DNA of 64,000 bases, taken from the NCBI RefSeq assembly GCF_053078305.1, contig NZ_CP166879.1. One strand, given 5' to 3'. Under the pieces are notes generated by a model, which ran no database searches, was not told the DNA's origin, and saw only the letters and a program-made list of their open reading frames with translations. Both the position numbers and the translations under genes were made by a program. Numbering within the stretch: position 1 is the first letter of the stretch; every line of letters begins with the position of its first letter. This document shows positions 5,072 to 24,197 of the stretch, piece by piece.

Positions 5072-6628
5072 ATGCACGATTACCTGCTTTTTTTACTGGG
5101 ACTTACCCCCCTTCTGGCGATGATCATTTTGATTCTGAAAGTCAAAATGCCCATACACTATTCTGTGCTTAGCACTCTCCTGCTCACGCTAATCCTTGGA
5201 GGGGTTTTCTGGCAGACGCCAGTTATGGATATGGGATCTGCTGTGGTATACGGCGCAATCAAAGGTTTGTGGCCGATTGTGATTGTCATCCTTGCTGCCA
5301 TTTACAGCTATAACCTGATGAATGCGACAAAAAGCATGGATATTCTGAGAAATGTTCTAGCCAGCGTGAGCGATGATAAACGTATCCAGGTTCTTCTTAT
5401 CTCATGGTGTTTTGGCGGATTTCTTGAGGCGGCCGCCGGATACGGTACAGCGGTAGCAATCCCCATAGGTATACTCATTGCACTGGGCTTTAACCCACTA
5501 AAAGCAGCGATTGCATCACTGGTTGCTAATACAGTCCCTACAGCGTTTGGGGCAGTCGGTATACCTGTCTCCGTGCTTGCTGAACAAGTTAATTTACCTG
5601 TAACCACACTCAGCGGGACGATTATTCTTCAGCTGGCACTGTTCAACATTCTGCTCCCCTTCGTTATCGTCACGATTATCGGTGGAGGTATGAAAGCTAT
5701 ACGAGGCGTAGGGTTAATTACCCTGATGTGCGGTATTAGCACATTGATACCTCAGTATCTGGTGGCTGTTAATCTTGGCGCAGAGCTCCCGGCTTTCGCA
5801 GGAAGTCTTGTCAGTCTGATCGTTATAGTCTTTATGGCAAAAAACCGTAAAGAAAAAACAGAACCTGAATTTCTTATTGAGAGTTCAGCAGATAGCGCCA
5901 GCGCACTTTCATACTCTCGTGGGGCGTTGTTACGTGCGTGCTCAATCTACATTCTGATCTTTCTGTTCATTCTGCTTTGCTCTCCACTGTTCCCGACGAT
6001 AAAAAGTGCAGTGTCTCAGATTGCCTCGTCACTCACCTTCTCTCTGAGTAACGGCAGCAATCTGTCGATGAAAATTGAATGGATCGCAACCCCCGGTGTT
6101 CTGATTATCATTGCCAGTGTTATTGGCGGCTTGATACAGAAAGCATCCCTGTCATGCCTGTTAAACGTATTTGTCAGCACGGTAAAACAACTTAAAAACT
6201 CCATTATTGCCATTTCTGCGATTGTTGCCATGGCAACGGTAATGGATGTCTGTGGGTTGATTGGCACTCTGGCACAGAGCCTTGTGGATCTGACTGGTGG
6301 GGCCTACCTCTTCATTGCTCCGGTTATCGGCGCTCTTGGTACATTTGTTACTGGTAGTGACACAAACTCCAACATTCTGTTTGGTAAATTGCAGACTACT
6401 GCGGCTGAAAAATTGCATGTGGACCCGCTCTGGCTGGCTGCCGCAAATACATCTGGCGCAACAGGCGGCAAAATGATTTCTCCTCAGAGTATTGCTATCG
6501 CTGTTTCAGCCACCCGTATGGATGGTCAGGGCAGCGTAATCATGTCAGGAACACTGAAGTACTGCTTTGCTTATATTGTTATTCTTGGACTGAAAGTAGG
6601 CCTTGTCTACCACCTGTTCATGGCCTGA
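5072..6628 (+). CDS. L-lactate permease family (LctP/LldP-like) transporter, 518 aa
   Basis: Polytopic membrane protein; conserved LctP blocks (GLWPI, CFGGFLEAAAGYG, TGSDTNSN, GGKMISPQSIAIA) recalled from LldP/GlcA. Confidence 0.75.
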   Translation: MHDYLLFLLGLTPLLAMIILILKVKMPIHYSVLSTLLLTLILGGVFWQTPVMDMGSAVVYGAIKGLWPIVIVILAAIYSYNLMNATKSMDILRNVLASVSDDKRIQVLLISWCFGGFLEAAAGYGTAVAIPIGILIALGFNPLKAAIASLVANTVPTAFGAVGIPVSVLAEQVNLPVTTLSGTIILQLALFNILLPFVIVTIIGGGMKAIRGVGLITLMCGISTLIPQYLVAVNLGAELPAFAGSLVSLIVIVFMAKNRKEKTEPEFLIESSADSASALSYSRGALLRACSIYILIFLFILLCSPLFPTIKSAVSQIASSLTFSLSNGSNLSMKIEWIATPGVLIIIASVIGGLIQKASLSCLLNVFVSTVKQLKNSIIAISAIVAMATVMDVCGLIGTLAQSLVDLTGGAYLFIAPVIGALGTFVTGSDTNSNILFGKLQTTAAEKLHVDPLWLAAANTSGATGGKMISPQSIAIAVSATRMDGQGSVIMSGTLKYCFAYIVILGLKVGLVYHLFMA

Positions 6629-6677
6629 GAAAAAACAACAAAAGGACGTGGAATATTAATCAACAGGAGAAATTTCT

Positions 6678-7397
6678 GTGAATGTTAACTTTTTCGTCAC
6701 CTGCATTGGTGATGCGTTTAAATCCCGGATGGCACAAAAGAGTGTGCTGTTACTGGAGCAATTGGGTTGCAATGTCCATTTCCCCGAAAAGCAGGGATGT
6801 TGTGGTCAGCCAGCGATAAATGGCGGTTATGTTCGTGATGCCATCCCGGGCATGAAAAATCTCATATCTTCGCTGGAAGAGAATGACTGGCCGGTAGTAT
6901 CTCCTGCCGGGTCATGCACTTACACGATAAAAAATTACGCTCGCTATCTCAGTGAAGAACCTGAGTGGGCGGCACGAGCTGAAAAAGTGGCTGAACGCCT
7001 GCATGATTTGACATCATTTATAGTAAATCATCTTGGCATCACAGATGTTGGGGCAAAACTCAATGGTCGCGCTGTGTACCATCCCTCCTGCAGCCTTTCC
7101 CGTAAGCTGGGTGTAACCAGAGAGCCGCTTTTGCTACTTGAGAATGTACAGGGGCTTGAGCTACTGCCGTTTCACGCTCAGGAAACGTGCTGCGGGTTTG
7201 GCGGCACATTCTCTGTAAAAATGGCGGAGATCTCTGGTGAAATGGTGAAAGAGAAAGTCGGGCATATTATGGATGTTAAACCTGATTTTCTTATCGGGGC
7301 TGACGCCAGTTGCCTGCTAAACATCGGCGGTCGGCTTAACCGTGAAGGGCATCCTGTAAAAGTGATGCATATTGCTGAAGTCCTGATGCACAGATGA
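6678..7397 (+). CDS. LutA/YkgE-like Fe-S oxidoreductase (cysteine-rich CCG-domain protein), 239 aa, GTG start
   Basis: Two CCG motifs (QGCCGQP, ETCCGFGG); size and order as in lutABC/ykgEFG operons. Confidence 0.75.
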   Translation: MNVNFFVTCIGDAFKSRMAQKSVLLLEQLGCNVHFPEKQGCCGQPAINGGYVRDAIPGMKNLISSLEENDWPVVSPAGSCTYTIKNYARYLSEEPEWAARAEKVAERLHDLTSFIVNHLGITDVGAKLNGRAVYHPSCSLSRKLGVTREPLLLLENVQGLELLPFHAQETCCGFGGTFSVKMAEISGEMVKEKVGHIMDVKPDFLIGADASCLLNIGGRLNREGHPVKVMHIAEVLMHR

Positions 7398-7407
7398 GGT
7401 AAACAGA

Positions 7408-8823
7408 ATGTCTTTGAAAACAAGTGATATCAGGTTTAAAGAGCGTATCCGTATTCAGATTCAGGACCCGATCATGCGAAAAGCTGTGGCTAACGCACAG
7501 GAGCGCATAGGGACTAATCGACAGAAAATGGTTGATGAACTGGGACACTGGGAGGAATGGCGTTCACGAGCTGAACAGATTCGTCGGCATGTTCTGGAAA
7601 ATCTTGATGCTTATTTGTATCAATTGTCCGAAAAGGTTACTGCGAATGGCGGGCATGTATATTTTGCCCGTACCAGAGAGGATGCAACCAGTTACATACT
7701 GAAGGTGGCGAAAGAAAAAAACGCCAGGAAGGTTGTTAAATCCAAATCAATGGTGACTGAGGAAATTGGCATGAATGCCGTTCTTCAGAAAGCCGGGATA
7801 CCCGTGATTGAAACGGACCTTGGGGAATATATTCTTCAGCTAGCACATGAGCCACCATCGCATGTGGTTGTGCCGGCAATACATAAAGATCGCCATCAAA
7901 TCCGCAGAGTTTTACATGAACATCTGGGGTATGACGGGCCTGAAACTCCAGAAGCAATGACATTGTTCATCCGTGAGAAAATCAGACAAGATTTTCTGAG
8001 TGCTGAAGTTGGCGTAACGGGGTGTAACTTTGCCGTTGCAGAAACAGGGTCAGTCTGCCTTGTTACAAACGAAGGCAACGCACGGATGTGCACCACATTA
8101 CCTAAAACACATATTGCTGTTATGGGTATGGAGCGTATTGCTCCGACATTCCAGGAGGTGGATGTTCTGATTACCATGCTTGCAAGGAGTGCTGTCGGGG
8201 CGAGACTGACAGGTTATAACACCTGGCTTACAGGCCCCAGAGAAGAAGGACATGTTGATGGTCCGGAAGAGTTCCATCTCGTTATTGTTGACAATGGGCG
8301 TTCAGAGATTCTCGGCTCAGAATTCAGCGATGTATTGCGATGTATCCGCTGCGGTGCCTGCATTAATACCTGCCCGGCTTATCGTCAGATTGGTGGGCAT
8401 GGTTATGGTTCAATCTACCCGGGGCCAATCGGCGCGGTTATTTCCCCATTGCTTGGTGGATATGAAGACTTTAAGGATTTACCCTATGCCTGCTCATTGT
8501 GCACTGCCTGCAATGGGGTATGTCCTGTAAAAATACCTCTGGCAACGCTAATACAAAAACATCGCCAGGTTATGGCAGAGTCTGAAATCACACCATTAAC
8601 GGAACGCCGTATAACCAGAGCATTCAATTACATAAACAGCCATCCGGCGTTGTGGAAGGTAGGTATGGTTGCTGGGGCCAAAACAGCCCGTCTGTTCATC
8701 AGGAAAGGAAAAACGCCGATTAGTGTTGGGGCGATAAAAGAATGGACTGAAGCCAGAGACCTGCCATCACCTGATGGAGAAAGCTTCCGTAGTTGGTTCA
8801 AGCGACATAAGAAGGAGGGGTAA
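7408..8823 (+). CDS. LutB/YkgF-like 4Fe-4S lactate-utilisation protein, 471 aa
   Basis: Two ferredoxin-type clusters (CIRCGACINTCP, CSLCTACNGVCP); follows the lutA-like gene with a 10-bp gap. Confidence 0.75.
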   Translation: MSLKTSDIRFKERIRIQIQDPIMRKAVANAQERIGTNRQKMVDELGHWEEWRSRAEQIRRHVLENLDAYLYQLSEKVTANGGHVYFARTREDATSYILKVAKEKNARKVVKSKSMVTEEIGMNAVLQKAGIPVIETDLGEYILQLAHEPPSHVVVPAIHKDRHQIRRVLHEHLGYDGPETPEAMTLFIREKIRQDFLSAEVGVTGCNFAVAETGSVCLVTNEGNARMCTTLPKTHIAVMGMERIAPTFQEVDVLITMLARSAVGARLTGYNTWLTGPREEGHVDGPEEFHLVIVDNGRSEILGSEFSDVLRCIRCGACINTCPAYRQIGGHGYGSIYPGPIGAVISPLLGGYEDFKDLPYACSLCTACNGVCPVKIPLATLIQKHRQVMAESEITPLTERRITRAFNYINSHPALWKVGMVAGAKTARLFIRKGKTPISVGAIKEWTEARDLPSPDGESFRSWFKRHKKEG

Positions 8824-8826
8824 TTT

Positions 8827-9525
8827 ATGGAAAACAGAGAGGAATTTCTCGTTGCGATCGCCAGAAAGCTTGGCAGACCAGTAAGACATATTCCCGAAGC
8901 AATGCCGGAGCCTGTAAATACGCTGGCTACGACACGTTTAACAGAGTTGACATCAGACCAACGCTGTGAGGCGTTTATTAAATTTGCCTCGGAAGTGATG
9001 CTTGCCGAGTGTGTTCTGGTGTCGCCTGAGAACGCACCATCAACAGCCTTAGACATCTGTTGGAAGTTCGGTTCCGGGCCAGTCATTATCAGCAACGATC
9101 AACGACTGGTCGATACAGGGATTACGCCATTGCTACAAAAAGAAATGGACGCTGCTCTGTGGGATCCGGAGAAGGGCGATGAAAATATCCATCTTGCTGA
9201 AAAGGCAAAAACTGGTGTCGTTTTCGCTGAGTATGGGCTGACAGAATCAGGAGGCATTGTCTTATTCTCCGCACCAGAACGTGGGCGCTCAGTAAGCCTT
9301 TTGCCTGAAGCATCATTATTTGTTTTACGTAAAAGCACCATTCTCCCCAGAGTGGCGCAGCTTGCGCAAAAACTTCATGATATGGCTCAGGAAGGACAAC
9401 GGATGCCGTCCTGTATAAATCTGATTGGAGGCCCAAGTTCTACTGCAGATATAGAACTGATCAAAGTTGTTGGCGTACATGGTCCTGTACATGCAACCTA
9501 TTTGATCATTGATGATTGCGATTAA
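8827..9525 (+). CDS. LutC/YkgG-like lactate-utilisation protein, 232 aa
   Basis: Size and position completing the three-gene lutABC-like set; start 4 bp after the lutB-like stop. Confidence 0.65.
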   Translation: MENREEFLVAIARKLGRPVRHIPEAMPEPVNTLATTRLTELTSDQRCEAFIKFASEVMLAECVLVSPENAPSTALDICWKFGSGPVIISNDQRLVDTGITPLLQKEMDAALWDPEKGDENIHLAEKAKTGVVFAEYGLTESGGIVLFSAPERGRSVSLLPEASLFVLRKSTILPRVAQLAQKLHDMAQEGQRMPSCINLIGGPSSTADIELIKVVGVHGPVHATYLIIDDCD

Positions 9526-10752: not shown

Positions 10753-12300
10753 CTACTTGCGTAGCGATAAAATTGCCCGTGCGGTTTCAGCACGGTTATA
10801 GATCTGCATTTTTTTTATTGCAGCATCCACATCTTCACCGCTTTTCTTATTCAGTTTAATCAGAAACTCAACAGGTAATAGCGAAGCTAAATTTTCAAAT
10901 TTTGATTCAGACCAAGTAATGGTTGCAACAGCCCCTTCAGTTCTCTTAATCATTAGTTTTTTAAGTAATTCTAAACGCTCTGGCTCAACAGTTATATAAC
11001 CAATCGGCAGGGTTAATGCACTATCAGAATTAGGTTGACCGTGGTATTGCACCAAAGCAATCACATCAGGAATTAAGAGGATCTCCAAACGATCAAATTT
11101 AGCCTCTGAAGTAAGGCCAATACCGGTAGGAAAACGACCTAAGTGCCGCTTACGCTCTTGACGTTTTTCACCTTCATCTGCACTTGAGTGTAAAAGCGAA
11201 ATGCGAGCAATCTTATCATCGGCATAATTGCCAAGTATATCGCCTAGAGCGCGAGTAAAACGCGAAAGTTGACTACCATTAGCTCCCCACAGTGGTACTT
11301 TACTGCTATACCACAGCGCTTTTGGAGCTGTTTTACCTATATAATCACGTAATGCATTATGCAACATACTAATGAACAGCTTAGAATTGTGCGGCAAATA
11401 AACAGCCCCTAACATGCCGGTAGTCAATGAAGTACCGTAGCCAGTTTTACGTTGTTCACGAGCCTCTATCCAGCCGGAATAGTTGAACTTATAACCATTA
11501 GCAAATTGTAACAACACTTTATCATTTGCTAGTTTACAGAAATCTTCACAGTCGATACCGAATTCATCTAGTTTATGTTCTCCCAAAAAATCTGCGATAT
11601 GAGCTTCCAGCTCGTTTGAAAGCGGCAGCCGGGTGTTACCTAAATATTCATAGGAACGAGTAAATTTCTGCGGCTCAATGCTCCCAGCAGAAACACCGTA
11701 GCTAACCTCTATCTCTATTGGGAGCTGCACCATCTCATGCGAACTACAGCCCATTATCTTATATAATTTAGTCCGTTGACGCTCATACTCGCTGTTGCGG
11801 CTGAGCAAAAGATGGTGCCGAAACTGGGAACTAAAAGCCTCTGTTACCGCAGCAGCATCTCCCCCGATCTGATGCCGCGGCAATAGCTCTGGCAGTCCAG
11901 AAGTAAAACGACGATTTGGTTGCGGTTTACATATCGAAAGAGTTAGTAGATCGAATGCAACTTCCTCCGTACATTCTTGATATTTAACTAAACTTGGCTT
12001 CCCACCATTATTAGCTGCATGCTTACGTAGGAATGAGCTAGCCTCAATATGCCCATCAGGATTAATGTTGATCAGTCTGTTAGCCAGCAACCCATCAAGC
12101 AATACCTCTCGCTCACGATCAGTTAGACCAAAGTAATTCTGTAACTCGCTGGGATAGAGTTGATCAAAAATCAGCAGCAAGCGACATGCAAACTGTTCAA
12201 TTCCAGGCATCAGTTTTTCAGTGGTCAAAGCGCAGTTGATCTTGTAACTACGCGCAGGTAGTAAAACGGTAATCAGATTACCCAGACGTGGTTCTGACAT
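10753..12300 (-). CDS. Hypothetical 515-aa protein, partner of the NERD-kinase-helicase gene; no motif recognised
   Basis: Long ORF in low-GC DNA; its ATG overlaps the upstream stop (TAATG) indicating translational coupling. No TM segments, P-loop, HKD, HEPN or other signature seen by eye. Confidence 0.7.
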   Translation of the reverse strand: MSEPRLGNLITVLLPARSYKINCALTTEKLMPGIEQFACRLLLIFDQLYPSELQNYFGLTDREREVLLDGLLANRLININPDGHIEASSFLRKHAANNGGKPSLVKYQECTEEVAFDLLTLSICKPQPNRRFTSGLPELLPRHQIGGDAAAVTEAFSSQFRHHLLLSRNSEYERQRTKLYKIMGCSSHEMVQLPIEIEVSYGVSAGSIEPQKFTRSYEYLGNTRLPLSNELEAHIADFLGEHKLDEFGIDCEDFCKLANDKVLLQFANGYKFNYSGWIEAREQRKTGYGTSLTTGMLGAVYLPHNSKLFISMLHNALRDYIGKTAPKALWYSSKVPLWGANGSQLSRFTRALGDILGNYADDKIARISLLHSSADEGEKRQERKRHLGRFPTGIGLTSEAKFDRLEILLIPDVIALVQYHGQPNSDSALTLPIGYITVEPERLELLKKLMIKRTEGAVATITWSESKFENLASLLPVEFLIKLNKKSGEDVDAAIKKMQIYNRAETARAILSLRK

Positions 12301-15300
12301 TAGTTGTTATCTCCAAGCAGACTTTGACCACACAGGATTTGGTAGTTGGGTTCATCTACTGCAACCTGTTTACTAATAAATTCATGAACGTTTCCAAGTG
12401 CTGAATCATTATTGGTCTTTGACCACATACGCCTTGCTCCCAGAATCAATAACCTTTCTTGAGCTCGCGAAATAGCAACGTTTATTCGCGGCGCGTCGCG
12501 CAGGAAACCTTGTAGTTTGTTGGGATTATCGCGAACCAGACTGAGGATAATTATCTTGTTTTCCTGGCCCTGATATGAATCAACGGTATCGATCTTGATC
12601 AAACCACGTAACGATGCAGCCCATTCAGCCCGACTGATAGCATTGTCAATTTCCTCTTTTTGCTGACGATACATTGTGATTATACCAATAGGATATGGCT
12701 GTTCTGTGGTAATAGTTTGCTCAAGCTGTGCAATGCAGCCATCACTCGACAATGACTGCAAAGCCTCTAGCAGTAGCCGGACTTCTCGTTGATTATAGTA
12801 ACGACCATTACCCTTATGTTCTTCTGCACCTGCTTCATTAGGGCTCGAACTATCGATCCAAGTAACAGTTTTGTTCCAAGGGATTGGTAACTTGGAATAC
12901 CAATCTGGCGAGACTTTCCTCGATGAATGCAGTTTACCGATATCTTGAGCGTAAAAGCACTCCGATACTAACTCGCCAATTGGTTCTACCATTCGATATT
13001 GAGTATCGAGTGTTACGCCGCCTGTTGCTTTAAAAGCACGTTCAAAATCAGACTCATAAAAGATCCCTTTCCCGAGTTCTAATTTCTTAGAGGCTAACTT
13101 AAGATGCTGTTGATGATAGAATGGTGGCAATTGTTTATGATCCCCTACCAACAGCACCCGCTTGCCTGATTGCAGCGCTACCATCAATTCAGCAGCTTGT
13201 GCTCGGCCAGCCTCATCAACTATTACCCAATCAAAGCTGGACTCAGCTAGTTCTAGTCGACGATTCCCAACACCAACAAGAGTTCCACAAACCAATCGCT
13301 TACTTTTGAACATAAATCGATCAAATCCAGCCTCGCCGCCGCGTAATACATCCATCCACTCTTGGCTCATTTCCAATAGCTGCATAAAACGTTCAAGGTT
13401 CTCTGGATTGTTATAATTGTATTGTATGGCAACTTGCTCAGCCAACTGTCTTATCAAGGTTTCATCATAGACAAGAGTTTTCAGCAAGCTGTCATCGAAT
13501 ATTGAGTTAATAATTTCTTGTGTTCGCAGTTTAAGCTGATTGCTTTGTTCTAATAATTCAGCCAGTCGCTCTTGATGACTAATACTACTACTCTTTATTT
13601 GTTCTACTTTATCCAGCTCACGGCTATATTGGCCATATGTCACCATCAAGGGATTCAGCGTACGATGTAACTGACATAACTGTTGGACTAATAATGGGGC
13701 CATCCCTAGGCGCTTTCCTAGGGAGCTAACTCGCAGATCATATTCACGGTGAAATTTATGCTGAATCTGTCGCTGAAGAGCTTTAGTTGCAACACTTAGC
13801 ATACCCTCATCAATCATAAGTTCATTACCAATACGTACTGTATCCAGTTCCATTCCTTTCGTATGGCAGAGCTCTCGAGCCTTGATGGCTACATTATCAA
13901 CAGAGGCATGGGATTGCCCGACCAAAAGAATGTTATTCACACCGCAATGTTGATACAGATAGTGAATAAATTTTGAAATAAATGTTGTTTTACCTGTTCC
14001 AGGTGGTCCCTGCAGAACTCCAACTGGTCCAAACTCGACCAACTGTTGAAATGCCATTAGCTGCTGTTCATTAAAACGTTGTCCAGGCTGATCATAAAGT
14101 GCGCGTAATGTCTCCGCGGATGGCCGCGGTTGCATTTGCTGCATGCAGGGTTTCTGGTGGTAATCAAAATACTGTGGCAGATGCTGGATCTCTGCTTTGT
14201 TTTCAATTACCCGTTGAAGGGCTCTTTGACGCAACTCTCTTGATGATTTGTCACGGATCGATTCCAATTGTAGCTGGCTGCCGCTACTAATTCGCTTACG
14301 AGCAGCATCAAAATCAAAGCGAATAGCCAATAGACTCGGCGTAGTCTCACTTAGCTGCAATTCCCCTAATTGCACTGATTCACGCTTATCTTTAATATAA
14401 ACAATGATCTTATCATCAAGTTCAAAGCTGAGGTCAGCACCGGATTCCGTAGTATATGGGTAGAGTAAGCAACCACTCGGTGATTCCTGAAAGTCAGTAG
14501 AGTCGATGTTGACTATATCTCGTAGGTCTACTTCTGTATCAGATAATGCCTGCCATAACTCAATTGGGCTTGACTCACTACTATCGAAGTCATCTTCATC
14601 CATCTCTTGATTAGGATTAGCTCGCTCAATGATGGCATCAATTACTGGCTCGAGGTTAAACAGTAGTTCAATAAAAGTATTACGCTGATTAAGTGAGCCA
14701 CGTTGTAATGAAAGTTGAGTATTAATTTTAGCCTGGGAATATTTACCAGCCTTTATACTTTCTTCGATCGATAATCCTTTTTCATACACTATTCTATTAA
14801 TAGTGCGATTATCAGGATCTAAGTCTATCAATAGCCGCTCTCCTAGGCCAGTGATGTAACAACGCAATTCATGCGCAAAGCGTGGGTTAGATGACCAGTT
14901 ACATTGAAAATAATAGATCCCATCATTTTGTTCTAGAAGCTTCACTTCTTGCGGCCAATCATCTGTGCCCCAGCAAACAGGAATTACCTTATCCTGTGAC
15001 TCAGACGCCACAACTTGATTAATCTCAGCTTGTTCCGGTGCTCGAATTGACTGCAGCAAAGGATCGAGCGCGATAGGTATACCGTCAACGGTTTGTTTTG
15101 CGCGTTCTAGCTCAGCCTGCACCAGTACTGGCATATCTTCACTAAATAGCTCCTCCACCATACGATATACTGCAAAGCAATCTCGCCCAAAAGCATCAGT
15201 ACTTTCGGGATTCTCTGGCTGGTAGCGATTATCTGCAGTTAATTCATCACTGAATTCAAGCAATCCAATCAGAGTAATTACTGTCTGCTCCCCGACTTGT

Positions 15301-17258
15301 ACCAGCAGTTTCTCTGGGCAAAGATCTCCATGAGGTAACTGCTTTTCATGAAAAGCATGAATGGTGTTGATCAACTTTTCCGCAATTGTAAAACGTTGGG
15401 ATTGTACTAACACGTTCTCAGCAATAAACTGTGACCACGGTAGGCCATCCACATACTCGCTCACTACATACAAGCCGCCTTGTCCTAATAGTCCATAGGA
15501 CTGCACCTTAGGAGTTGGCAGATTTATATGCGTAAGCTTATCGATCCGTTGCTTAAAAGCGTGGATACGGCGGTTAACACCAGGTTGTTGAGGGGTCAAA
15601 ATAACACCATCCCACAATTTTACCTGCAGAGCTTTCCCACCTTGTTCACAGTGATAACTGATGCTGCCAGTCGTAGCAATAGCAGCAAGAGCAGAGTAAA
15701 CCATAGACAACTGTTCAGGAAGTGGAGGAAACTCAATTAACACACCAACGCTGTTCATCCCTTCGCGAAAGAATTTGTTTTGCTTTAATTCTTGATAAAT
15801 CTGGTTAGCTTCATCAAATTCTTGGCTATGTTCCTTAGTAGCTGCATTAAACTCATTGAGCATTATGTCCGCACGTGGAAAGCGTTTACTTGGCTCAAGG
15901 TTAAGAGCTTGCTCAAACCAGCTATTTAGAATACCGCTAAAAGGATCAGTTAATGGAGCTCTCCATTCAGGCATCTGTCCAGGAGTCAGTAATGATTCAC
16001 CTGCAAAACAAATACGATAAGCAATTACAGCCAACATGAATACATCTAGGCGATAGGGCTCAACTGCTTCTTCAAAAGCATCTTCGGGCAAAATATATGG
16101 AGCACTTTGCAATGTCGGACGCAATGACTCTAGGCTATTATGTCCCTCCAGTGAGGCTGCGCCAAAGCCAGTAACGACAATGCTCTTCTGATCCCCTGCG
16201 TACCATAGATTGTGCGGGTCAATATCACAATGACTGATACCCAAGCTATGTAATTCCGAGAATGGAGCTAATAATGCACGAACGCGATCAATACGCTCAG
16301 ATTTACTCCATCCGTCAGCTTCGCTATCTAGAATCTCATCTAATCGGCTAAAACTACGGCGTAACTCATACAGCTCACGGGCATCATCAGTTATATCCTC
16401 CTCGGATAGTTCCCTTACAGCACGCAACATATAATCCTGCATAGTTGCGCTGCCATGACGAACTAGGCGACCGACTCGAGTCTCACGCAGAGCTATCTCA
16501 GCCCACAATGTTTGCATTGCGTTTGCTACACCCAAGGCATCAAAGTTCCACTGCCGTAGCAGACCTCTGTGTTGACTATTGTCTTTGTGGGTAGCCCTGA
16601 ATTCGTTGTAGACCATGTGAGGGTGACTAAAGAATGGCTTATCGTTCGCAAGATAACCGCTTTCTTTTAGTGGCAAAGGCCTGACTTTTGGTCCTTCAAA
16701 GAAGGACTTAATTATAGGTAATGCCTCATCAGAATTTGGTCGAGGCTTTCCCCCTTCAAAAAGATGAAAAAAGTTAGTGTGTTGCACCAGCTTTTCGTAA
16801 TTTTTTGGGTTACCTATAGTCAAGAATTCATCACGGGTATGAACATAGCGCCTCTCACTTAATGGCAAGTTTTCAGGACCAGCTGTGCCACACAGCACTA
16901 CATGAGCCTCAACATGCAAAAAGTAACCCAGCTTACGAGATAACTCTTCCTGCAACAAATCTTTTAGTCGCAGTGCATGCTCACGCTTGATCTGATAGGG
17001 ACTTTTGCCTCGTGACTTACCATTTTGCAGCCACTTCCCCCCTTCAAATGTGATGTTACCATTCCACTCTTTAAGCTCGACTAATAGCAGACGGTCAGCA
17101 GTAATAATTAGCATATCGATTTCCATCGACCCTTGGCTATCAGTAACAACTAAGCCAGCATAGCCAAACCAACTATCTGGTAACTGCTTAACCATCATAT
17201 CAACTGTTTTGGTTTCGCTGCGGTGCAGGCCAGCACCACCTACTATCTGATACTTCAC
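12300..17258 (-). CDS. 1652-aa multidomain protein: NERD (PD-(D/E)xK-like) domain, two protein-kinase-like domains, Upf1/DNA2-like SF1 helicase
   Basis: GTG start with GGAG about 9 nt upstream; NERD-like EIDMLIIT...LLVELKEW (aa 45-64); kinase-like catalytic loops HCDIDPHNLW (aa 343-352, then TGFGAA) and HGDLCPEKLLV (aa 643-653); helicase Walker A GPPGTGKTT (aa 1085-1093), Walker B VIVDEAGRA (aa 1345-1353), VGDHKQLPP, DSYQGQE, NVAISRAQERL. Confidence 0.75.
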   Translation of the reverse strand: MKYQIVGGAGLHRSETKTVDMMVKQLPDSWFGYAGLVVTDSQGSMEIDMLIITADRLLLVELKEWNGNITFEGGKWLQNGKSRGKSPYQIKREHALRLKDLLQEELSRKLGYFLHVEAHVVLCGTAGPENLPLSERRYVHTRDEFLTIGNPKNYEKLVQHTNFFHLFEGGKPRPNSDEALPIIKSFFEGPKVRPLPLKESGYLANDKPFFSHPHMVYNEFRATHKDNSQHRGLLRQWNFDALGVANAMQTLWAEIALRETRVGRLVRHGSATMQDYMLRAVRELSEEDITDDARELYELRRSFSRLDEILDSEADGWSKSERIDRVRALLAPFSELHSLGISHCDIDPHNLWYAGDQKSIVVTGFGAASLEGHNSLESLRPTLQSAPYILPEDAFEEAVEPYRLDVFMLAVIAYRICFAGESLLTPGQMPEWRAPLTDPFSGILNSWFEQALNLEPSKRFPRADIMLNEFNAATKEHSQEFDEANQIYQELKQNKFFREGMNSVGVLIEFPPLPEQLSMVYSALAAIATTGSISYHCEQGGKALQVKLWDGVILTPQQPGVNRRIHAFKQRIDKLTHINLPTPKVQSYGLLGQGGLYVVSEYVDGLPWSQFIAENVLVQSQRFTIAEKLINTIHAFHEKQLPHGDLCPEKLLVQVGEQTVITLIGLLEFSDELTADNRYQPENPESTDAFGRDCFAVYRMVEELFSEDMPVLVQAELERAKQTVDGIPIALDPLLQSIRAPEQAEINQVVASESQDKVIPVCWGTDDWPQEVKLLEQNDGIYYFQCNWSSNPRFAHELRCYITGLGERLLIDLDPDNRTINRIVYEKGLSIEESIKAGKYSQAKINTQLSLQRGSLNQRNTFIELLFNLEPVIDAIIERANPNQEMDEDDFDSSESSPIELWQALSDTEVDLRDIVNIDSTDFQESPSGCLLYPYTTESGADLSFELDDKIIVYIKDKRESVQLGELQLSETTPSLLAIRFDFDAARKRISSGSQLQLESIRDKSSRELRQRALQRVIENKAEIQHLPQYFDYHQKPCMQQMQPRPSAETLRALYDQPGQRFNEQQLMAFQQLVEFGPVGVLQGPPGTGKTTFISKFIHYLYQHCGVNNILLVGQSHASVDNVAIKARELCHTKGMELDTVRIGNELMIDEGMLSVATKALQRQIQHKFHREYDLRVSSLGKRLGMAPLLVQQLCQLHRTLNPLMVTYGQYSRELDKVEQIKSSSISHQERLAELLEQSNQLKLRTQEIINSIFDDSLLKTLVYDETLIRQLAEQVAIQYNYNNPENLERFMQLLEMSQEWMDVLRGGEAGFDRFMFKSKRLVCGTLVGVGNRRLELAESSFDWVIVDEAGRAQAAELMVALQSGKRVLLVGDHKQLPPFYHQQHLKLASKKLELGKGIFYESDFERAFKATGGVTLDTQYRMVEPIGELVSECFYAQDIGKLHSSRKVSPDWYSKLPIPWNKTVTWIDSSSPNEAGAEEHKGNGRYYNQREVRLLLEALQSLSSDGCIAQLEQTITTEQPYPIGIITMYRQQKEEIDNAISRAEWAASLRGLIKIDTVDSYQGQENKIIILSLVRDNPNKLQGFLRDAPRINVAISRAQERLLILGARRMWSKTNNDSALGNVHEFISKQVAVDEPNYQILCGQSLLGDNN

Positions 17259-17725: not shown

Positions 17726-18353
17726 CTATTCGTTATAGTGTTCGAACGCCTCCGCAAGGTTTTTTACTGCCGTTAACACGTCCGGTTTAGGTATGATACT
17801 GATGTAATCGCTCTTCATCGTTTTCACGAACCGTTCTCTCATTCCATTACTCTGAGGGCTACTGACTGCCGTCGTGCAGAGCTCCAGATTCAACTCTCTG
17901 GCGAACTGCCGTGTTTCATGAGTTGTATAAGCCGAACCGTTATCGGTCAGCCACTGGATGGGCCATCCCGGTCTATCGCCAAAGCGTTTTTCTATCGCTC
18001 CTGACATGACATCCTGCACCGTTGCTTTGCCATAACCTCCCGTGCTTGCGGCCCAGTCTATGGATTCAAGATCGCAACAGTCCAGTGCGAACGTGACACG
18101 CAGTTTTTCGTCATCATCACAACCGAACTCAAAGCCATCGGCACACCAGCGCGGGTCGCTTTCCTTCACCGATATTCGGGCCTTTATGTTCCCTCTGCGG
18201 TCGTGAAGGTTTGTCATGTAATAACAACAGGTTATTCTCGCTCATTATTCGATAAACGCGATTTGCATTCACGAACTGCAGTCCTTCGTTAAGACTGCCG
18301 TCTGAGAATAGCCCAGACACGACGATAGCCATCGAATCGCTGAACAGCGTCAT
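17726..18353 (-). pseudogene. IS2-like (IS3 family) transposase OrfB remnant, truncated and frameshifted
   Basis: 163-aa ORF contains [10 protein letters not shown]...WLTDNGS...AEAFEHYNE resembling IS2 InsD; the upstream 74-aa ORF in another frame carries the adjacent NANRVYRIM segment. Confidence 0.6.
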
Positions 18354-19295: not shown

Positions 19296-20909
19296 TTATT
19301 TATTGGTGAGTACTACGTTCCATGGCAGGAGTTCATCAACTCGGTTGGAAGGCCATTCTGGCAGTACGCTCAGGATATGGCGCAGATACGCTTCCGGATC
19401 GATACCGTTCAGACGGCAGGTGCCGATCAGCCCGTACAACAGTGCTCCACGCTCGCCGCCGTGATCGCTGCCAAAGAACATAAAGTTTTTCTTTCCGAGA
19501 CAGACTGCACGAAGCGCTCTTTCCGCAGCATTATTATCCGCCTCCGCCAGACCGTCATCACTGTAATAACAGAGGGCATCCCACTGATTCAGTACATAGC
19601 TGAACGCTTCGCCCAGTCTGGATTTTTTCGACAGCGTACCATTCTTCTCCACCATCCATTCATGCAGTGACGTCAGTAACACTTTGCTTCGCTGCTGCCT
19701 GACGGCAAGACGCTCTGACTCCGGTAATCCCCGTATTTCATCCTCGATGGCGTACAGTTCACTGATTCGCTTCAGGGCTTCTTCTGCCGTCGCACTTTTG
19801 CTGCTGATGTATACATCGTGGATTTTTCGCCGGGCATGGGCCCAGCACGCAACTTCTGTCAGTGCACCACCTTCACGTTCTGCACTGAACAGCCGATCGT
19901 AACCGCTGAACGCATCCGCCTGCAGGATACCCCGGAAGGGACGAAGGTGTTGTACCGGATGTTTTCCCTGCCTGTCTGGTGAGTAGGCGAACCAGACCGC
20001 CGGTGGCTCTGATGAGCCCGCATTCCGGTCATCCCGGACATACGTCCAGATGCGTCCTGTTTTTGCCTTTTTTCTGCCCGCTGCCAGCACTTTTACTGGT
20101 GTGTCGTCAGTGTGAACCTTGCGGGTGTTCATCACGTAACGGTACAGGGTATCATTCAGCAGAGTCATTAACTGACAACATGCGTCAACCCAGTTGGAGA
20201 GTAATGCCCGGCTCAGTTCGATGCCCTGGCGGGCAAAGATTTCACTCTGACGATACAGTGGCAGGTGTTCGCAGTATTTTCCCGTTAACACGCGGGCAAG
20301 TAATCCGGAGCCCGCGATGCCGCGCTCTATCGGGCGGGACGGCGCTGGCGCTTCAACTATACAGTCACATTTTGTACAGGCTTTTTTTACCCGAACAGTG
20401 CGGATCACTTTCAGGGCGCTACTCACCAGTTCCAGCTGCTCAGCACTGACTTCCCCCAGATAATCCAGCTCACTGCCACACTCCGGGCAACAACTTTCTT
20501 CAGGCTCCAGACGGTGTATTTCACGGGGAAGATGTGCCGGTAACGGACGACGATGACGTGACTGTCGCAACTGGCGGGGAACCTGCGGGTCATCCTCACG
20601 CCCACTGTAACGATCGCTTTCCTGTTCGCGTTGTTTCAGTTGGGCCTCAGCCTGTTCAACCTCACGCTGCAGTTTTTCAGAACGGGTACCGAACAACATC
20701 CGGCGCAGTTTTTCTATCTGGGCCCTCAGATGTTCTATTTCCCGCTCCTCCTCTTCGATCTTTTCCTCGGCACGTGCCAGTGCAGAGCGCAGGAAGGCCT
20801 CCGTCTCTTCAACCAGACTCAGTTGCTGATCTTTCTGACGGAGGGCTTCAGCCTGCTCAGAGAGCAGCCTTTCCAGCTCAGTGATACGAATGAGGTATTT
20901 CCGACTCAT
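19296..20909 (-). CDS. IS66-family transposase OrfC, 537 aa (element A)
   Basis: Coiled-coil N-terminus, CxxC zinc-finger region, DDE-type core typical of IS66 TnpC. Confidence 0.8.
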   Translation of the reverse strand: MSRKYLIRITELERLLSEQAEALRQKDQQLSLVEETEAFLRSALARAEEKIEEEEREIEHLRAQIEKLRRMLFGTRSEKLQREVEQAEAQLKQREQESDRYSGREDDPQVPRQLRQSRHRRPLPAHLPREIHRLEPEESCCPECGSELDYLGEVSAEQLELVSSALKVIRTVRVKKACTKCDCIVEAPAPSRPIERGIAGSGLLARVLTGKYCEHLPLYRQSEIFARQGIELSRALLSNWVDACCQLMTLLNDTLYRYVMNTRKVHTDDTPVKVLAAGRKKAKTGRIWTYVRDDRNAGSSEPPAVWFAYSPDRQGKHPVQHLRPFRGILQADAFSGYDRLFSAEREGGALTEVACWAHARRKIHDVYISSKSATAEEALKRISELYAIEDEIRGLPESERLAVRQQRSKVLLTSLHEWMVEKNGTLSKKSRLGEAFSYVLNQWDALCYYSDDGLAEADNNAAERALRAVCLGKKNFMFFGSDHGGERGALLYGLIGTCRLNGIDPEAYLRHILSVLPEWPSNRVDELLPWNVVLTNK

Positions 20910-21712: not shown

Positions 21713-21802
21713 AACAGGTGTCCACTAGTTGAAAAGGTGGGCACCTACGTTACCAATACTGGCTTAATGGCTACATACGGCGGTCAGTTTACGCTTACTG
21801 CT

Positions 21803-23320
21803 ATGGCACTTACCATGGTACAAAAAGTCATGTCGGAGAATGCCGAAAAAGAGCGGGAATTACTGGAGAAAAGCCGGCGCATCCAGCTTCTGGAAGAAAT
21901 GCTGAAACTGGTTCGTCAACAGCGCTTCGGTAAAAAATGTGAAACGCTGGCTGGTATGCAACGCTCCCTGTTCGAAGAGGATGTTGATGTCGATATCGCC
22001 GCGCTTACCGCACATCTGGATAAACTGCTCCCGCAATCCCCTGAAGAAGACGAAAAAGCGTCCCGTTCACGCCCGATACGCAAACCCTTACCGGCTCATC
22101 TTCCACGGGTGGAAAAAATTATCCAGCCGGACACTGACCATTGCCCTGAATGTGACGAGCCGCTGCACTATATCCGTGATGCGGTGAGTGAAAAGCTGGA
22201 GTATATTCCCGTTCACTTCGTGGTGAACCGTTATGTCCGTCCGCAATACAGTTGTCCCTGTTGCCAGAAGGTGTTCAGCGGTGAAATGCCGGCACATATC
22301 CTCCCGAAAAGTGCCGTTGAGCCATCAGTCATCGCACAGGTGATCATCAATAAATACGGTGACCACCTGCCTCTGTATCGCCAGCAGCACATTTTCTCCC
22401 GAATGGGGGTGGAGCTCCCCGTCAGTACAATGGCGGATAGGGTCGGTGTTGCTGGCGCTGCACTGGCCCCGCTGGCAAAATTGTTACGCCACGAGCTTCT
22501 GACACGGGATGTTATTCATGCCGATGAAACGTCCCTGAGGCTCCCTGATACCCGGAAAGGCGGTAAATCCTGCTCCGGCTGGCTGTGGGCTTACGTCAGC
22601 GGAGAAAGAAGCAGTCCGCCGGTCGTCTGTTTTGACTCGCAGACCGGACGGGCCCTCAGATATCCTGAGGCCTGGCTGCAGGGCTGGTGTGGCGGTACGC
22701 TGGTGAGTGACGGATACAGCGTGTACAAATCTCTGGCGGATAATGACCCCGGTATTACATCTGCCTGTTGCTGGAGCCACGCAAGGCGCGGTTTCGCAAA
22801 TCTGTATAAGGCCAGCAGGGAGCCCCGTGCAGCCATGGCGCTGAGAAAAATCGCGGGTCTTTATCGCATTGAGAAGTTCATCCGTGAACGTCCTGTGGAA
22901 AAAATACGGCAATGGCGACAACGGTATTCCCGGCCGATAGTGAATGACCTGTTTGCCTGGCCTGAAGAGCAGGAGCCGTGCTGTCCGCCCGACGGACCAC
23001 TAAACAAAGCGATTAATTATATCCTGAACCGGCGCGATGAACTGAGCTGCTTCCTGAGTGACGGAGCCGTGCCCCTGGACAACAATATCTGCGAGCGTGC
23101 TATCCGCCCGGTCGTTATGGGACGAAAGGCCTGGTTGTTCGCCGGTTCACTGATGGCCGGAAACCGCGCGGCACAGATAATGAGCCTTCTGGAAACGGCA
23201 AAACGTAATGGTCTGGAGCCACATGCCTGGCTGACAGACGTCCTGGCGCGTCTGCCGGAATGGCCAGAGGAGCGACTGGCAGAGTTGCTGCCTCTTGAGG
23301 GATTTACCTTCTCCGGGTGA
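21803..23320 (+). CDS. IS66-family transposase OrfC (element B), about 505 aa; start codon lies inside the duplicated target of element A
   Basis: IS66 TnpC-like sequence; the track's longer ORF (from 21737) reads through the element A inverted repeat, so the first ATG after the repeat (21803) is preferred. Confidence 0.65.
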   Translation: MALTMVQKVMSENAEKERELLEKSRRIQLLEEMLKLVRQQRFGKKCETLAGMQRSLFEEDVDVDIAALTAHLDKLLPQSPEEDEKASRSRPIRKPLPAHLPRVEKIIQPDTDHCPECDEPLHYIRDAVSEKLEYIPVHFVVNRYVRPQYSCPCCQKVFSGEMPAHILPKSAVEPSVIAQVIINKYGDHLPLYRQQHIFSRMGVELPVSTMADRVGVAGAALAPLAKLLRHELLTRDVIHADETSLRLPDTRKGGKSCSGWLWAYVSGERSSPPVVCFDSQTGRALRYPEAWLQGWCGGTLVSDGYSVYKSLADNDPGITSACCWSHARRGFANLYKASREPRAAMALRKIAGLYRIEKFIRERPVEKIRQWRQRYSRPIVNDLFAWPEEQEPCCPPDGPLNKAINYILNRRDELSCFLSDGAVPLDNNICERAIRPVVMGRKAWLFAGSLMAGNRAAQIMSLLETAKRNGLEPHAWLTDVLARLPEWPEERLAELLPLEGFTFSG

Positions 23321-23921: not shown

Positions 23922-24197
23922 CTATTTTTTATCTTCTTTTCTTTCTTGTAACTTTGCTTTTATCCAAATACCAATCCCTGCTAACATACCAGCCCCTCCC
24001 CCCACCTTTAAAGAATAAATAATATCTGCCCTCCAATCAAAAAATAAAACTTGAGTTTTAGAAAAAACTATCAGTCTACCAAGAATAGTACCTAACATTG
24101 CCATAAAAAAGATGCAAGCTATGCAGCGCATTATTAGTATGATAAGAATGTAAAAGTTGACACTCTTATTTATTTTTAATGGATTTATCAGCTTCAT
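23922..24197 (-). CDS. cdiI: CdiI-like immunity protein (small membrane protein), 91 aa
   Basis: Overlaps the cdiA 3' end by 32 bp; hydrophobic helices; position typical of CDI immunity genes. Function inferred from context. Confidence 0.55.
   Translation of the reverse strand: MKLINPLKINKSVNFYILIILIMRCIACIFFMAMLGTILGRLIVFSKTQVLFFDWRADIIYSLKVGGGAGMLAGIGIWIKAKLQERKEDKK

What the first reader, a model, noticed from the sequence alone, without database searches (positions are those of the whole stretch)
15099..16571. Two protein-kinase-like domains with non-canonical catalytic loops inside the giant protein
Residues about 230-470 and 580-720 each carry a kinase/APH-like catalytic-loop signature (HCDIDPHNLW followed by TGFGAA; a G-loop-like LLGQGGLYVV and hinge-like SEYVDG followed by HGDLCPEKLLV and GLLEF). 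The residues after the catalytic Asp differ from the canonical HRDLKPxN, and the DFG equivalents are degenerate. This suggests a pseudokinase or small-molecule/nucleotide kinase pair rather than a standard Ser/Thr kinase; tandem kinase architecture is unusual in bacteria.
Basis: partly seen in the sequence, partly recalled or inferred. Interest (0 to 1): 0.6.

Follow-up and report, generated by a model that had tools for sequence, protein, structure and literature searches.

The report
Pseudokinase-kinase pair in Mokosh defence protein
The two kinase-like regions are real protein-kinase folds, but they are the already described nuclease, dead-kinase, kinase module of bacterial anti-phage proteins, here inside the helicase protein MkoA of a type I Mokosh system, and in this E. 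coli copy the second kinase has also lost key catalytic residues.

Summary
That ORF is a full-length match to the PADLOC MkoA model (E=0, 1305 bits). An MkoB partner lies directly downstream, so this is a type I Mokosh anti-phage system, found in 71 of 5426 complete E. coli genomes.

Across 95 homologues plus the query (96 sequences), K1 is a family-wide pseudokinase. The β3 Lys is an invariant Arg and the DFG Asp is never present, yet the HRD Asp is kept. K2 is canonical in 80 of the 96 sequences, but this allele has N650K and D665G, so it is predicted inactive.

The NERD, pseudokinase, kinase arrangement is already published for PglW (BREX type 2) and DndF, and Mokosh type I is published as "kinase-helicase". 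The finding is therefore real but largely known. The only modest novelty is the doubly degenerate allele.

The parts
12300..17258 (-). mkoA, a 1652-aa long-form type I Mokosh 'kinase-helicase' protein (RefSeq WP_000877066.1, annotated 'AAA domain-containing protein')
   Evidence: ORF and translation. PADLOC MkoA PDLC03921 gives E=0, 1305 bits, over residues 2-1642 of a 1607-position profile. RefSeq annotation.
16893..17219 (-). NERD (PD-(D/E)xK-type) nuclease domain, residues 14-122, with D48, E61 and K63 retained
   Evidence: Pfam NERD 6e-14. In the 96-sequence family alignment D48 is 96/96, E61 is E65/D31 and K63 is 96/96.
15804..16667 (-). K1, a protein-kinase-fold domain (residues ~198-485) that is a family-wide pseudokinase
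16209..16232 (-). K1 catalytic loop, H343-C-D345-I-D-P-H-N350 (family consensus HRDxGxHS)
   Evidence: H343 96/96. D345 95/96. Position 347 (the Lys of HRDLK) is G64. Position 350 (catalytic Asn) is S60/N12/C10.
16155..16175 (-). K1 DFG-equivalent, V362-T-G364-F-G-A-A368, with no metal-binding Asp
   Evidence: Position 364 is G40/H18/N15/S13 and never D. S/T363 is 96/96. The HMM alignment to PknB places the DFG Asp opposite position 364.
14994..15677 (-). K2, a Hanks-type protein-kinase-fold domain (residues ~528-755) that is catalytically degenerate in this allele
15309..15332 (-). K2 catalytic loop, H643-G-D645-L-C647-P-E-K650 (family consensus HGDL(K/H)PxN)
   Evidence: Family counts are D645 91/96, position 647 K42/H27 (query C) and N650 88/96 (query K).
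15252..15272 (-). K2 DFG-equivalent, L663-I-G665-L-L-E668-F (family consensus LIDxxD)
   Evidence: D665 is 93/96 (query G) and D668 is 78/96 (query E). The nearest relatives at 42-44% identity have LVDVLDY or LLDVVDY.
12339..14138 (-). Upf1/DNA2-like SF1 helicase (residues ~1041-1640) with all motifs intact
   Evidence: PDB hits are Nam7/Upf1 at 3e-28, then Sen1 and DNA2. Walker A GPPGTGKT, Walker B DEAG, and the VGDHKQLPP, DSYQGQE and SRA motifs match invariant family columns.
10753..12300 (-). mkoB partner gene (515 aa), whose start overlaps the mkoA stop, with no recognisable PLD domain
   Evidence: PADLOC MkoB PDLC03923 1.1e-61. No Pfam hit and no PDB sequence hit.

Best explanation
The region is the central signalling module of MkoA, the large subunit of a type I (long-form) Mokosh anti-phage system. 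MkoA carries the same N-terminal tripartite module as PglW of BREX type 2: a NERD restriction-type nuclease, then a pseudokinase (K1), then a Hanks-type Ser/Thr kinase (K2). In MkoA this module is fused through a ~280-residue middle region to a Upf1-like SF1 helicase.

Shown here:
- Both K1 and K2 have the protein-kinase fold and are homologous to each other.
- K1 lacks the β3 Lys (invariant Arg235), a glycine-rich loop and the DFG Asp in every homologue. It keeps the αC Glu, the HRD His/Asp, the APE-like motif and the αF Asp. It is therefore a conserved non-canonical, most likely non-phosphotransferase, domain.
- K2 keeps the β3 Lys, the HGD Asp, the catalytic Asn and the DFG Asp in 80 of the 96 aligned sequences. 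The E. coli/Salmonella allele in this window has K647C, N650K, D665G and D668E.
- The NERD and helicase catalytic motifs are intact.

Inferred by analogy:
- The comparison is with PglW, whose second kinase autophosphorylates and is required for phage resistance, and with pseudokinase-kinase pairs such as JAK JH2-JH1.
- In the family, K1 would act as a regulatory or ligand- and partner-binding scaffold for K2. K2 phosphorylation would couple sensing of phage nucleic acid by the helicase to effector activation, through the NERD nuclease and/or MkoB.
- In this allele, phosphotransfer by K2 is predicted to be lost. Both kinase folds would then work, if the system is still active, as non-catalytic scaffolds or allosteric switches.
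For: Identity of the protein:
- The PADLOC MkoA match is full length with E=0, and MkoB is adjacent at 1e-61.
- The same family includes the experimentally verified E. coli SEC470 'Kinase-Helicase' MkoA of 1652 aa (Millman supplement). It shares 28% identity with the query over NERD+K1, E=1.6e-39.

Link to PglW and MAD6:
- PglW HMMs align to residues 12-419 at 1e-22.
- The MAD6 HMM aligns to residues 10-486 at 2e-38.
- PglW is published as NERD 12-130, atypical kinase 195-490 and Hanks kinase 537-704. Its K677A mutant loses autophosphorylation and defence (PMC4365076).

Folds:
- K1 and K2 compared by hhalign give 97% probability, E=9e-11.

Motif statistics:
- Counts come from 95 full-length homologues at <=50% mutual identity plus the query.
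- The same degenerate K2 motif occurs in the 1288-member Salmonella/E. coli cluster P0151.

Evidence that the gene is not simply decaying:
- K2 as a whole is not unusually diverged. The K2/K1 identity ratio is 0.81 for the query against 0.85 for other pairs.
- The nuclease and helicase motifs are intact.
- The ORF is intact in 69 of 71 E. coli genomes that carry it.
Against: - No biochemical data exist for any MkoA kinase domain. Millman et al. mutated only the helicase and the PLD.
- Some kinases work without canonical residues (WNK, CASK, Haspin; my background knowledge). E668, three residues after the missing Asp, could conceivably bind metal, so 'inactive' is a prediction.
- K1 keeps an invariant HRD Asp and several invariant polar residues (H212, E219, R235, R258, E259, H337, H349-like). 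This conservation could reflect an unknown catalytic or ligand-binding activity rather than pure scaffolding.
- The αC Glu of K2 is not conserved even in the family (position 569 is L69, position 570 is E31). 'Canonical' therefore applies to four of the five classical residues.
- The locus sits among IS elements, which is compatible with a decaying island.
- The AF2 models are driven by the alignments and say nothing about activity.
Confidence: 0.8

Rival explanations
1. Both domains are active but atypical phosphotransferases. K1 would use Arg235/Glu259/Asp345. K2 would use Lys547/Asp645 with Glu668 as a substitute metal ligand. The pair would then be a functional tandem kinase with unusual chemistry or an unusual substrate.
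For: D345 (95/96), H343, R235 and E259 are invariant or nearly so in K1. K2 keeps K547 and D645 and has an acidic residue at 668. From my background knowledge, atypical kinases lacking canonical residues do exist.
Against: In K1, an Arg at β3 together with absence of both the G-loop and the DFG Asp in all 96 sequences is the classical pseudokinase pattern. PglW's equivalent domain is described as lacking an ATP site (PMC4365076) and as inactive (PMC12839542). The query's K2 lacks both Mg-coordinating residues, which are 88/96 and 93/96 conserved in the family.
Confidence: 0.12
2. The domains are small-molecule or nucleotide kinases of the APH/RIO/Kdo/CotH type (eukaryotic-like kinases) rather than protein kinases.
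For: There are weak Pfam Kdo, RIO1, ABC1 and APH hits for K2 homologues and weak Bud32 NCBIfam hits for residues 570-673. The HGDLxPxN catalytic loop resembles those of Kdo and Bud32.
Confidence: 0.03
3. The allele is a decaying, non-functional remnant. The K2 substitutions would be the first inactivating lesions in a defence island that is being eroded by insertion sequences.
For: The locus is flanked by a truncated IS2/IS3 transposase and IS66 copies. In one genome the gene itself is split by IS insertions (hit H1). Three to four catalytic K2 residues are changed at once.
Against: A 4959-nt ORF is intact and >=99% identical in 69 genomes and in a 1288-member Salmonella/E. coli protein cluster. 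All NERD and helicase catalytic residues are retained. K2 is not more diverged overall than in other family members. K2 structural hallmarks are retained (K547, W549, H637, H643, G644, D645, P648, D693). Sixteen of the 96 aligned sequences (the query and 15 representatives) show losses at K2 catalytic positions, which suggests a tolerated state.
Confidence: 0.1

Closest known systems
Mokosh type I MkoA, long form (PADLOC PDLC03921; verified example E. coli SEC470, IMG 2720391838; Millman et al. 2022)
   Same: There is a full-length HMM match. The domain order is the same (NERD, K1 with ALLRxWNF / SRER / AHRD..HS.W / LSxF motifs, K2, Upf1-like helicase). The length is the same at 1652 aa. A partner gene lies downstream and matches the paired MkoB model.
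   Different: Identity to the verified protein is only ~28% over NERD+K1. This allele has lost the K2 catalytic Asn and DFG Asp, whereas the representative closest to SEC470 (P0066) is canonical. Published descriptions mention one 'STK domain', not a pseudokinase-kinase pair.
PglW of BREX type 2 / Pgl (Streptomyces coelicolor)
   Same: The N-terminal tripartite module sits at nearly identical coordinates: NERD 12-130, atypical/inactive kinase 195-490 and Hanks kinase 537-704 (PMC4365076). PglW HMMs align to residues 12-419 here.
   Different: The C-terminal half of PglW is a helical domain, wHTH modules and an inactive STAND ATPase, and it works with PglX/Y/Z. MkoA has an SF1 helicase and works with MkoB. 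PglW's K2 is experimentally active, whereas the K2 here is predicted dead. Scores are far below the PglW family cut-off (79 against 990 bits).
DndF variants and MAD6 (MADS) with NERD plus tandem inactive/active S/T/Y kinases
   Same: The modular 'grammar' is the same, as described in PMC10853773 and PMC12839542. The MAD6 NCBIfam model aligns to residues 10-486 at 1.9e-38.
   Different: The C-terminal cores and the partner systems differ. The score is below the MAD6 cut-off (132 against 460 bits).
Bacterial Hanks-type Ser/Thr kinases (PknB, StkP, PknS)
   Same: These are the best sequence-profile and structural matches for both domains.
   Different: K1 lacks the β3 Lys, the G-loop and the DFG Asp. 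K2 in this allele lacks the catalytic Asn and the DFG Asp. Neither has a GxGxxG loop.
Eukaryotic pseudokinase-kinase tandems (JAK JH2-JH1; plant tandem kinase resistance proteins), as an analogy only
   Same: A pseudokinase sits immediately N-terminal to a kinase in one immune-signalling polypeptide. The JAK1 JH2 pseudokinase was the best single-sequence PDB hit for K2.
   Different: No specific homology beyond the kinase fold was found. The comparison rests on background knowledge and was not tested here.

Membership tests
Mokosh type I MkoA (long form) | Full-length match to the family HMM | tested here: met
   PDLC03921 gives E=0, 1305 bits, over residues 2-1642 against profile positions 2-1598 of 1607.
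Mokosh type I MkoA (long form) | Adjacent co-oriented MkoB gene | tested here: met
   The ORF at 10753-12300 (minus strand) overlaps the mkoA stop and matches PDLC03923 at 1.1e-61.
Mokosh type I MkoA (long form) | COG1112/Upf1-like SF1 helicase with an intact ATP site | tested here: met
   PDB hits are Nam7/Upf1 at 3e-28. Walker A and B and motifs III, V and VI are identical to invariant family columns.
Mokosh type I MkoA (long form) | Ser/Thr-kinase domain in the helicase protein | tested here: met
   Two kinase-fold domains are present. Catalytic competence was not shown.
Mokosh (as defined by Millman et al.) | PLD-family nuclease in the system | tested here: not met
   The MkoB here has no Pfam hit at E<=10 and no PDB sequence hit. 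The verified long-form SEC470 partner is likewise listed as 'HTH' rather than 'HTH-PLD'.
Mokosh type I | Protection against phage | not testable with these tools
   Only a ~28%-identical family member (SEC470) is marked as verified.
Catalytically competent Hanks/ePK kinase: K1 | Bilobal protein-kinase fold | tested here: met
Catalytically competent Hanks/ePK kinase: K1 | β3 Lys, glycine-rich loop and DFG Asp | tested here: not met
   R235 is 96/96. There is no GxGxxG. Position 364 is G/H/N/S and never D.
Catalytically competent Hanks/ePK kinase: K1 | αC Glu, HRD Asp, APE motif and αF Asp | tested here: met
   E259 96/96, D345 95/96, P391/E392 94/82 and D405 96/96.
Catalytically competent Hanks/ePK kinase: K2 | Bilobal protein-kinase fold | tested here: met
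Catalytically competent Hanks/ePK kinase: K2 | β3 Lys and catalytic-loop Asp | tested here: met
   K547 and D645 are present in the query, and are 88/96 and 91/96 in the family.
Catalytically competent Hanks/ePK kinase: K2 | Catalytic-loop Asn and DFG Asp (the Mg ligands) | tested here: not met
   The query has K650 and G665. The family has N in 88/96 and D in 93/96.
PglW-like NERD-pseudokinase-kinase module | NERD nuclease followed by an inactive and then an active kinase domain, in that order | tested here: met
   The order and coordinates match published PglW. In this allele the 'active' copy is degenerate.
BREX PglW (equivalog) | Whole-protein score above the curated cut-off, plus the C-terminal wHTH/iSTAND half and a BREX neighbourhood | tested here: not met
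   79 bits against a cut-off of 990, and only residues 14-417 align. The C-terminus is an SF1 helicase. I did not search the window for PglX/Y/Z-type BREX genes, so the neighbourhood was not tested.
APH / RIO / Kdo / CotH small-molecule or atypical kinases | Best profile and fold match to these families rather than to ePKs | tested here: not met

The most novel reading that the evidence does not exclude
This widespread E. coli/Salmonella Mokosh allele may be a functional defence system in which both kinase-fold domains are catalytically dead. Together with the degenerate kinase motifs in the verified ETEC H10407 MkoA and the K2 catalytic-residue losses in the query and 15 of the 95 family representatives, this would mean that the kinase folds of Mokosh (and perhaps of PglW-like modules generally) act mainly as non-catalytic sensors or allosteric scaffolds rather than as phosphotransferases.
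Probability: 0.3. Interest if true: 0.45.

Novelty: already known. Interest (0 to 1): 0.22.

Why it matters
The mechanism of Mokosh is still unknown, and the role of its kinase region has not been tested. Recognising that long-form MkoA carries the PglW-type NERD, pseudokinase, kinase module links Mokosh mechanistically to BREX type 2, MADS and some DndFGH systems. A natural allele lacking both Mg ligands of the second kinase is a ready-made test of whether phosphotransfer is needed for defence. Otherwise this is an ordinary, correctly classifiable defence gene.

Tried and rejected
- A direct BLASTP of K1 against K2 gave only a marginal hit (E=0.011). Profile-profile comparison was needed.
I therefore modelled the two domains separately and learned nothing about their interface.
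- The word-indexed homologue search returned only 12 mostly truncated proteins.
- Kwon et al. 2019 on the origin of pseudokinases (PMC6997932), which is cited for PglW, is not held.
- PHROGs gave only a generic 'serine-threonine kinase' family for K1.
- The literature search for 'tandem kinase' with 'anti-phage' gave nothing relevant.
- I considered and rejected the APH/RIO/CotH small-molecule kinase reading and the reading of LLGQGGLYVV as a glycine-rich loop.
- I looked for a PLD domain in MkoB and found none.
Full report
**Observation.** Window 12300-17258 (minus strand) is a single 1652-codon ORF with a GTG start, the same start that RefSeq uses. No competing ORF of 100 aa or more overlaps it.
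- HCDIDPHNLW at residues 343-352 and TGFGAA at 363-368.
- LLGQGGLYVV at 590-599 and SEYVDG at 600-605.
- HGDLCPEKLLV at 643-653 and GLLEF at 665-669.

The stated coordinates 15099-16571 equal residues 230-720.

**What the protein is.** Against PADLOC the whole protein matches MkoA model PDLC03921 end to end (E=0, 1305 bits, residues 2-1642). The next ORF downstream (10753-12300, whose start overlaps the mkoA stop) matches the paired MkoB model PDLC03923 at 1e-61. This is a type I Mokosh anti-phage system.

[quoted passage not shown] Their supplement lists three tested "Kinase-Helicase" MkoA proteins. One is the verified E. coli SEC470 protein, also 1652 aa, which shows the same NERD and K1 motifs. 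It aligns to the query at 28% identity over NERD+K1, E=1.6e-39.

The gene is chromosomal in 71 of 5426 complete E. coli genomes, at >=99% identity in 69 of them. It is annotated merely as "AAA domain-containing protein". The locus has 43-45% G+C against ~52% in the adjacent 18-24 kb stretch that holds the IS elements. It is bordered by a truncated IS2/IS3 transposase and by IS66 copies.

**Domain anatomy.**
- Pfam finds NERD at residues 14-122 (6e-14), Pkinase at 317-418 (1e-4) and a weak Pkinase hit at 595-657 (0.056).
- The C-terminal ~600 residues are a Upf1/Sen1/DNA2-like SF1 helicase (3e-28 to Nam7).
- NCBIfam and PADLOC models of PglW (BREX type 2) align to residues 12-419 at 1e-22.
- The MAD6 model aligns to residues 10-486 at 2e-38.
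- Many PD-T4-6 kinase models align to both kinase regions.

**Are both regions protein-kinase folds?** A search of 1.84 billion representatives with residues 130-780 found 96 proteins at E<=1e-30. Ninety-five of the listed hits are full-length (~1600 aa) homologues whose alignment spans both regions.

Family profiles built from trimmed alignments hit S. aureus PknB (4EQM):
- 7e-18 for K1, aligned from β4 through αI.
- 1.3e-16 for K2, aligned from the N-lobe through αF.

Scanned individually, 31 of 38 K2 homologues match Pfam Pkinase at <=1e-3. Kdo matches 19, APH 5 and RIO1 2.

AlphaFold2 models are confident and match protein kinases:

All 60 listed hits for each model are protein kinases or pseudokinases. 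None is an APH, RIO or CotH protein.

K1 and K2 profiles align to each other with 97% probability, E=9e-11. The true β3 strand is LQVKLW.

**Which motif positions are conserved?** Counts are from 95 homologues plus the query, 96 sequences in all.

| Position | Query | Family |
|---|---|---|
| K1 β3 Lys equivalent (235) | R | R 96/96 (W237 also 96/96) |
| K1 αC (258, 259) | R, E | R 92/96, E 96/96 |
| K1 catalytic loop (343, 344, 345) | H, C, D | H 96/96; R71/L12/C5; D 95/96 |
| K1 HRDLK Lys equivalent (347) | D | G64 |
| K1 catalytic Asn equivalent (350) | N | S60/N12/C10 |
| K1 DFG Asp equivalent (364) | G | G40/H18/N15/S13, never D |
| K1 preceding Ser/Thr (363) | T | S88/T8 |
| K1 APE-like (391, 392) | P, E | 94/96, 82/96 |
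| K1 αF Asp (405) | D | 96/96 |
| K2 β3 Lys (547) | K | 88/96 |
| K2 catalytic loop (643, 644, 645) | H, G, D | 94/96, 92/96, 91/96 |
| K2 HRDLK Lys equivalent (647) | C | K42/H27 |
| K2 P648 | P | 88/96 |
| K2 catalytic Asn (650) | K | N 88/96 |
| K2 DFG Asp (665) | G | D 93/96 |
| K2 second Asp (668) | E | D 78/96 |

K1 therefore lacks the β3 Lys and the DFG Asp in the whole family, and there is no glycine-rich loop. It is an ePK-fold domain with an intact C-lobe and an intact HRD, which is the classical pseudokinase pattern. The strong conservation of several polar pocket residues leaves room for ligand binding.

K2 differs. Eighty of the 96 sequences are canonical at K547, D645, N650 and D665, but the query is not. 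The nearest relatives at 42-44% identity read HGDLHPENILV...LVDVLDY. The 1288-member Salmonella/E. coli cluster at 97% identity shares the query's degenerate motif.

It is ancestral and family-wide in K1, and lineage-specific in K2.

The αC Glu of K2 is not conserved even in the family. "Canonical" therefore refers to four of the five classical residues.

**Is the allele decaying?**
- The NERD catalytic residues are retained (D48, E61, K63).
- All helicase motifs coincide with invariant family columns: GPPGTGKT, DEAG, VGDHKQLPP, DSYQGQE and SRA.
- K2 as a whole is not unusually diverged. The K2/K1 identity ratio is 0.81 for the query against a median of 0.85 for other pairs.
- K2 keeps the structural hallmarks W549, H637, H643, G644, P648 and D693.
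- The ORF is intact in 69 of the 71 carrier genomes. In one genome it is split by IS insertions, and PGAP then names the fragments "nuclease-related domain-containing protein" and "protein kinase family protein".

This favours retention of K2 as a folded, non-catalytic module over simple decay. The evidence is indirect.

**Comparison with what is known.** Hoskisson et al. (PMC4365076) described PglW as three parts:
- NERD at residues 12-130.
- An atypical kinase domain at 195-490 without a predicted ATP site.
- A Hanks-type kinase at 537-704, whose K677A mutant loses autophosphorylation and phage resistance.

These coordinates are almost the same as those found here. [quoted passage not shown] A 2023 review lists the NERD domain under Mokosh type I.

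The tandem arrangement is therefore not unusual among bacterial defence proteins, and the protein belongs to a named system. I did not find an explicit statement that long-form MkoA contains the pseudokinase-kinase pair. I also found no report that this E. coli/Salmonella allele has lost the K2 Mg ligands. Neither is a conceptual novelty.

**Most likely mechanism (inferred).** By analogy with PglW, the family's K2 would autophosphorylate or phosphorylate a partner, under the control of the K1 pseudokinase. This would couple nucleic-acid sensing by the Upf1-like helicase to effector activity. The only recognisable nuclease in this operon is the NERD domain, because MkoB has no Pfam or PDB match and the verified SEC470 partner is listed as "HTH" only.

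In this allele phosphotransfer is predicted to be absent. If the system works, both kinase folds must act as scaffolds or allosteric switches. It is suggestive that the verified short-form ETEC H10407 MkoA also shows degenerate motifs (LLHRHLDENAIL; QLTGFEWS). That is my own reading of the supplement sequence. Millman et al. report helicase and PLD mutants, and the passages I read mention no kinase mutant.

**Verdict.** Pseudokinase is supported. A small-molecule kinase and an unusual architecture are not supported. The feature is an already known module in an already known defence system, with a minor, testable twist.

Noticed in passing
window 10753-12300 (-): The MkoB partner matches the PADLOC MkoB model (1e-61) but has no Pfam hit at all and no PDB sequence relative. 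No PLD/HKD nuclease is recognisable, although Mokosh is defined by a PLD nuclease. The partner of the verified long-form SEC470 system is also listed only as 'HTH'. In this subtype the NERD domain of MkoA may be the effector nuclease.
   Followed up: partly
Millman et al. 2022 supplement (file 11), MkoA of E. coli ETEC H10407, IMG 2597791081: The experimentally verified short-form type I MkoA appears to have a degenerate kinase domain (LLHRHLDENAIL in place of HRDLKPxN; QLTGFEWS in place of DFG). This hints that kinase catalysis may not be needed for Mokosh defence.
   Followed up: no
family alignment of 95 MkoA homologues plus the query, at query residues 547, 645, 650 and 665: Sixteen of the 96 aligned sequences (the query and 15 of the 95 representatives) deviate at one or more K2 catalytic residues (K547R/Q/N/V, D645S/K/N/G, N650H/K, D665N/G). 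This suggests recurrent loss of K2 catalysis across the family.
   Followed up: partly
window 14139-14993 (-), MkoA residues ~756-1040: A ~280-residue region between K2 and the helicase has no domain assignment, apart from a chance-level SH3_1 hit at E=0.15. It is the least conserved part of the protein, at 23-38% identity among the closest homologues.
   Followed up: no
window 17726-18217 (-), 19296-20909 (-), 21737-23320 (+): A truncated IS2/IS3-family transposase lies immediately upstream of mkoA, followed by two IS66-family transposase genes in opposite orientation. The Mokosh locus (43-45% G+C) sits in an IS-rich island.
   Followed up: partly
window 24166-33279 (-) and 33832-35571 (-): A 3037-aa ORF carries a filamentous-haemagglutinin N-terminal (NPXG) domain and 20-aa β-helical repeats, which makes it CdiA- or two-partner-secretion-exoprotein-like. 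A 579-aa ORF just upstream had no NCBIfam hit at 1e-5.
   Followed up: no
window 693-2783 (+) and 5072-9525 (+): These are housekeeping-type flanks. One is a TonB-dependent receptor (PRK13486, full length). The other is a lactate permease followed by a LutB/LldF-type L-lactate oxidation Fe-S gene cluster.
   Followed up: no
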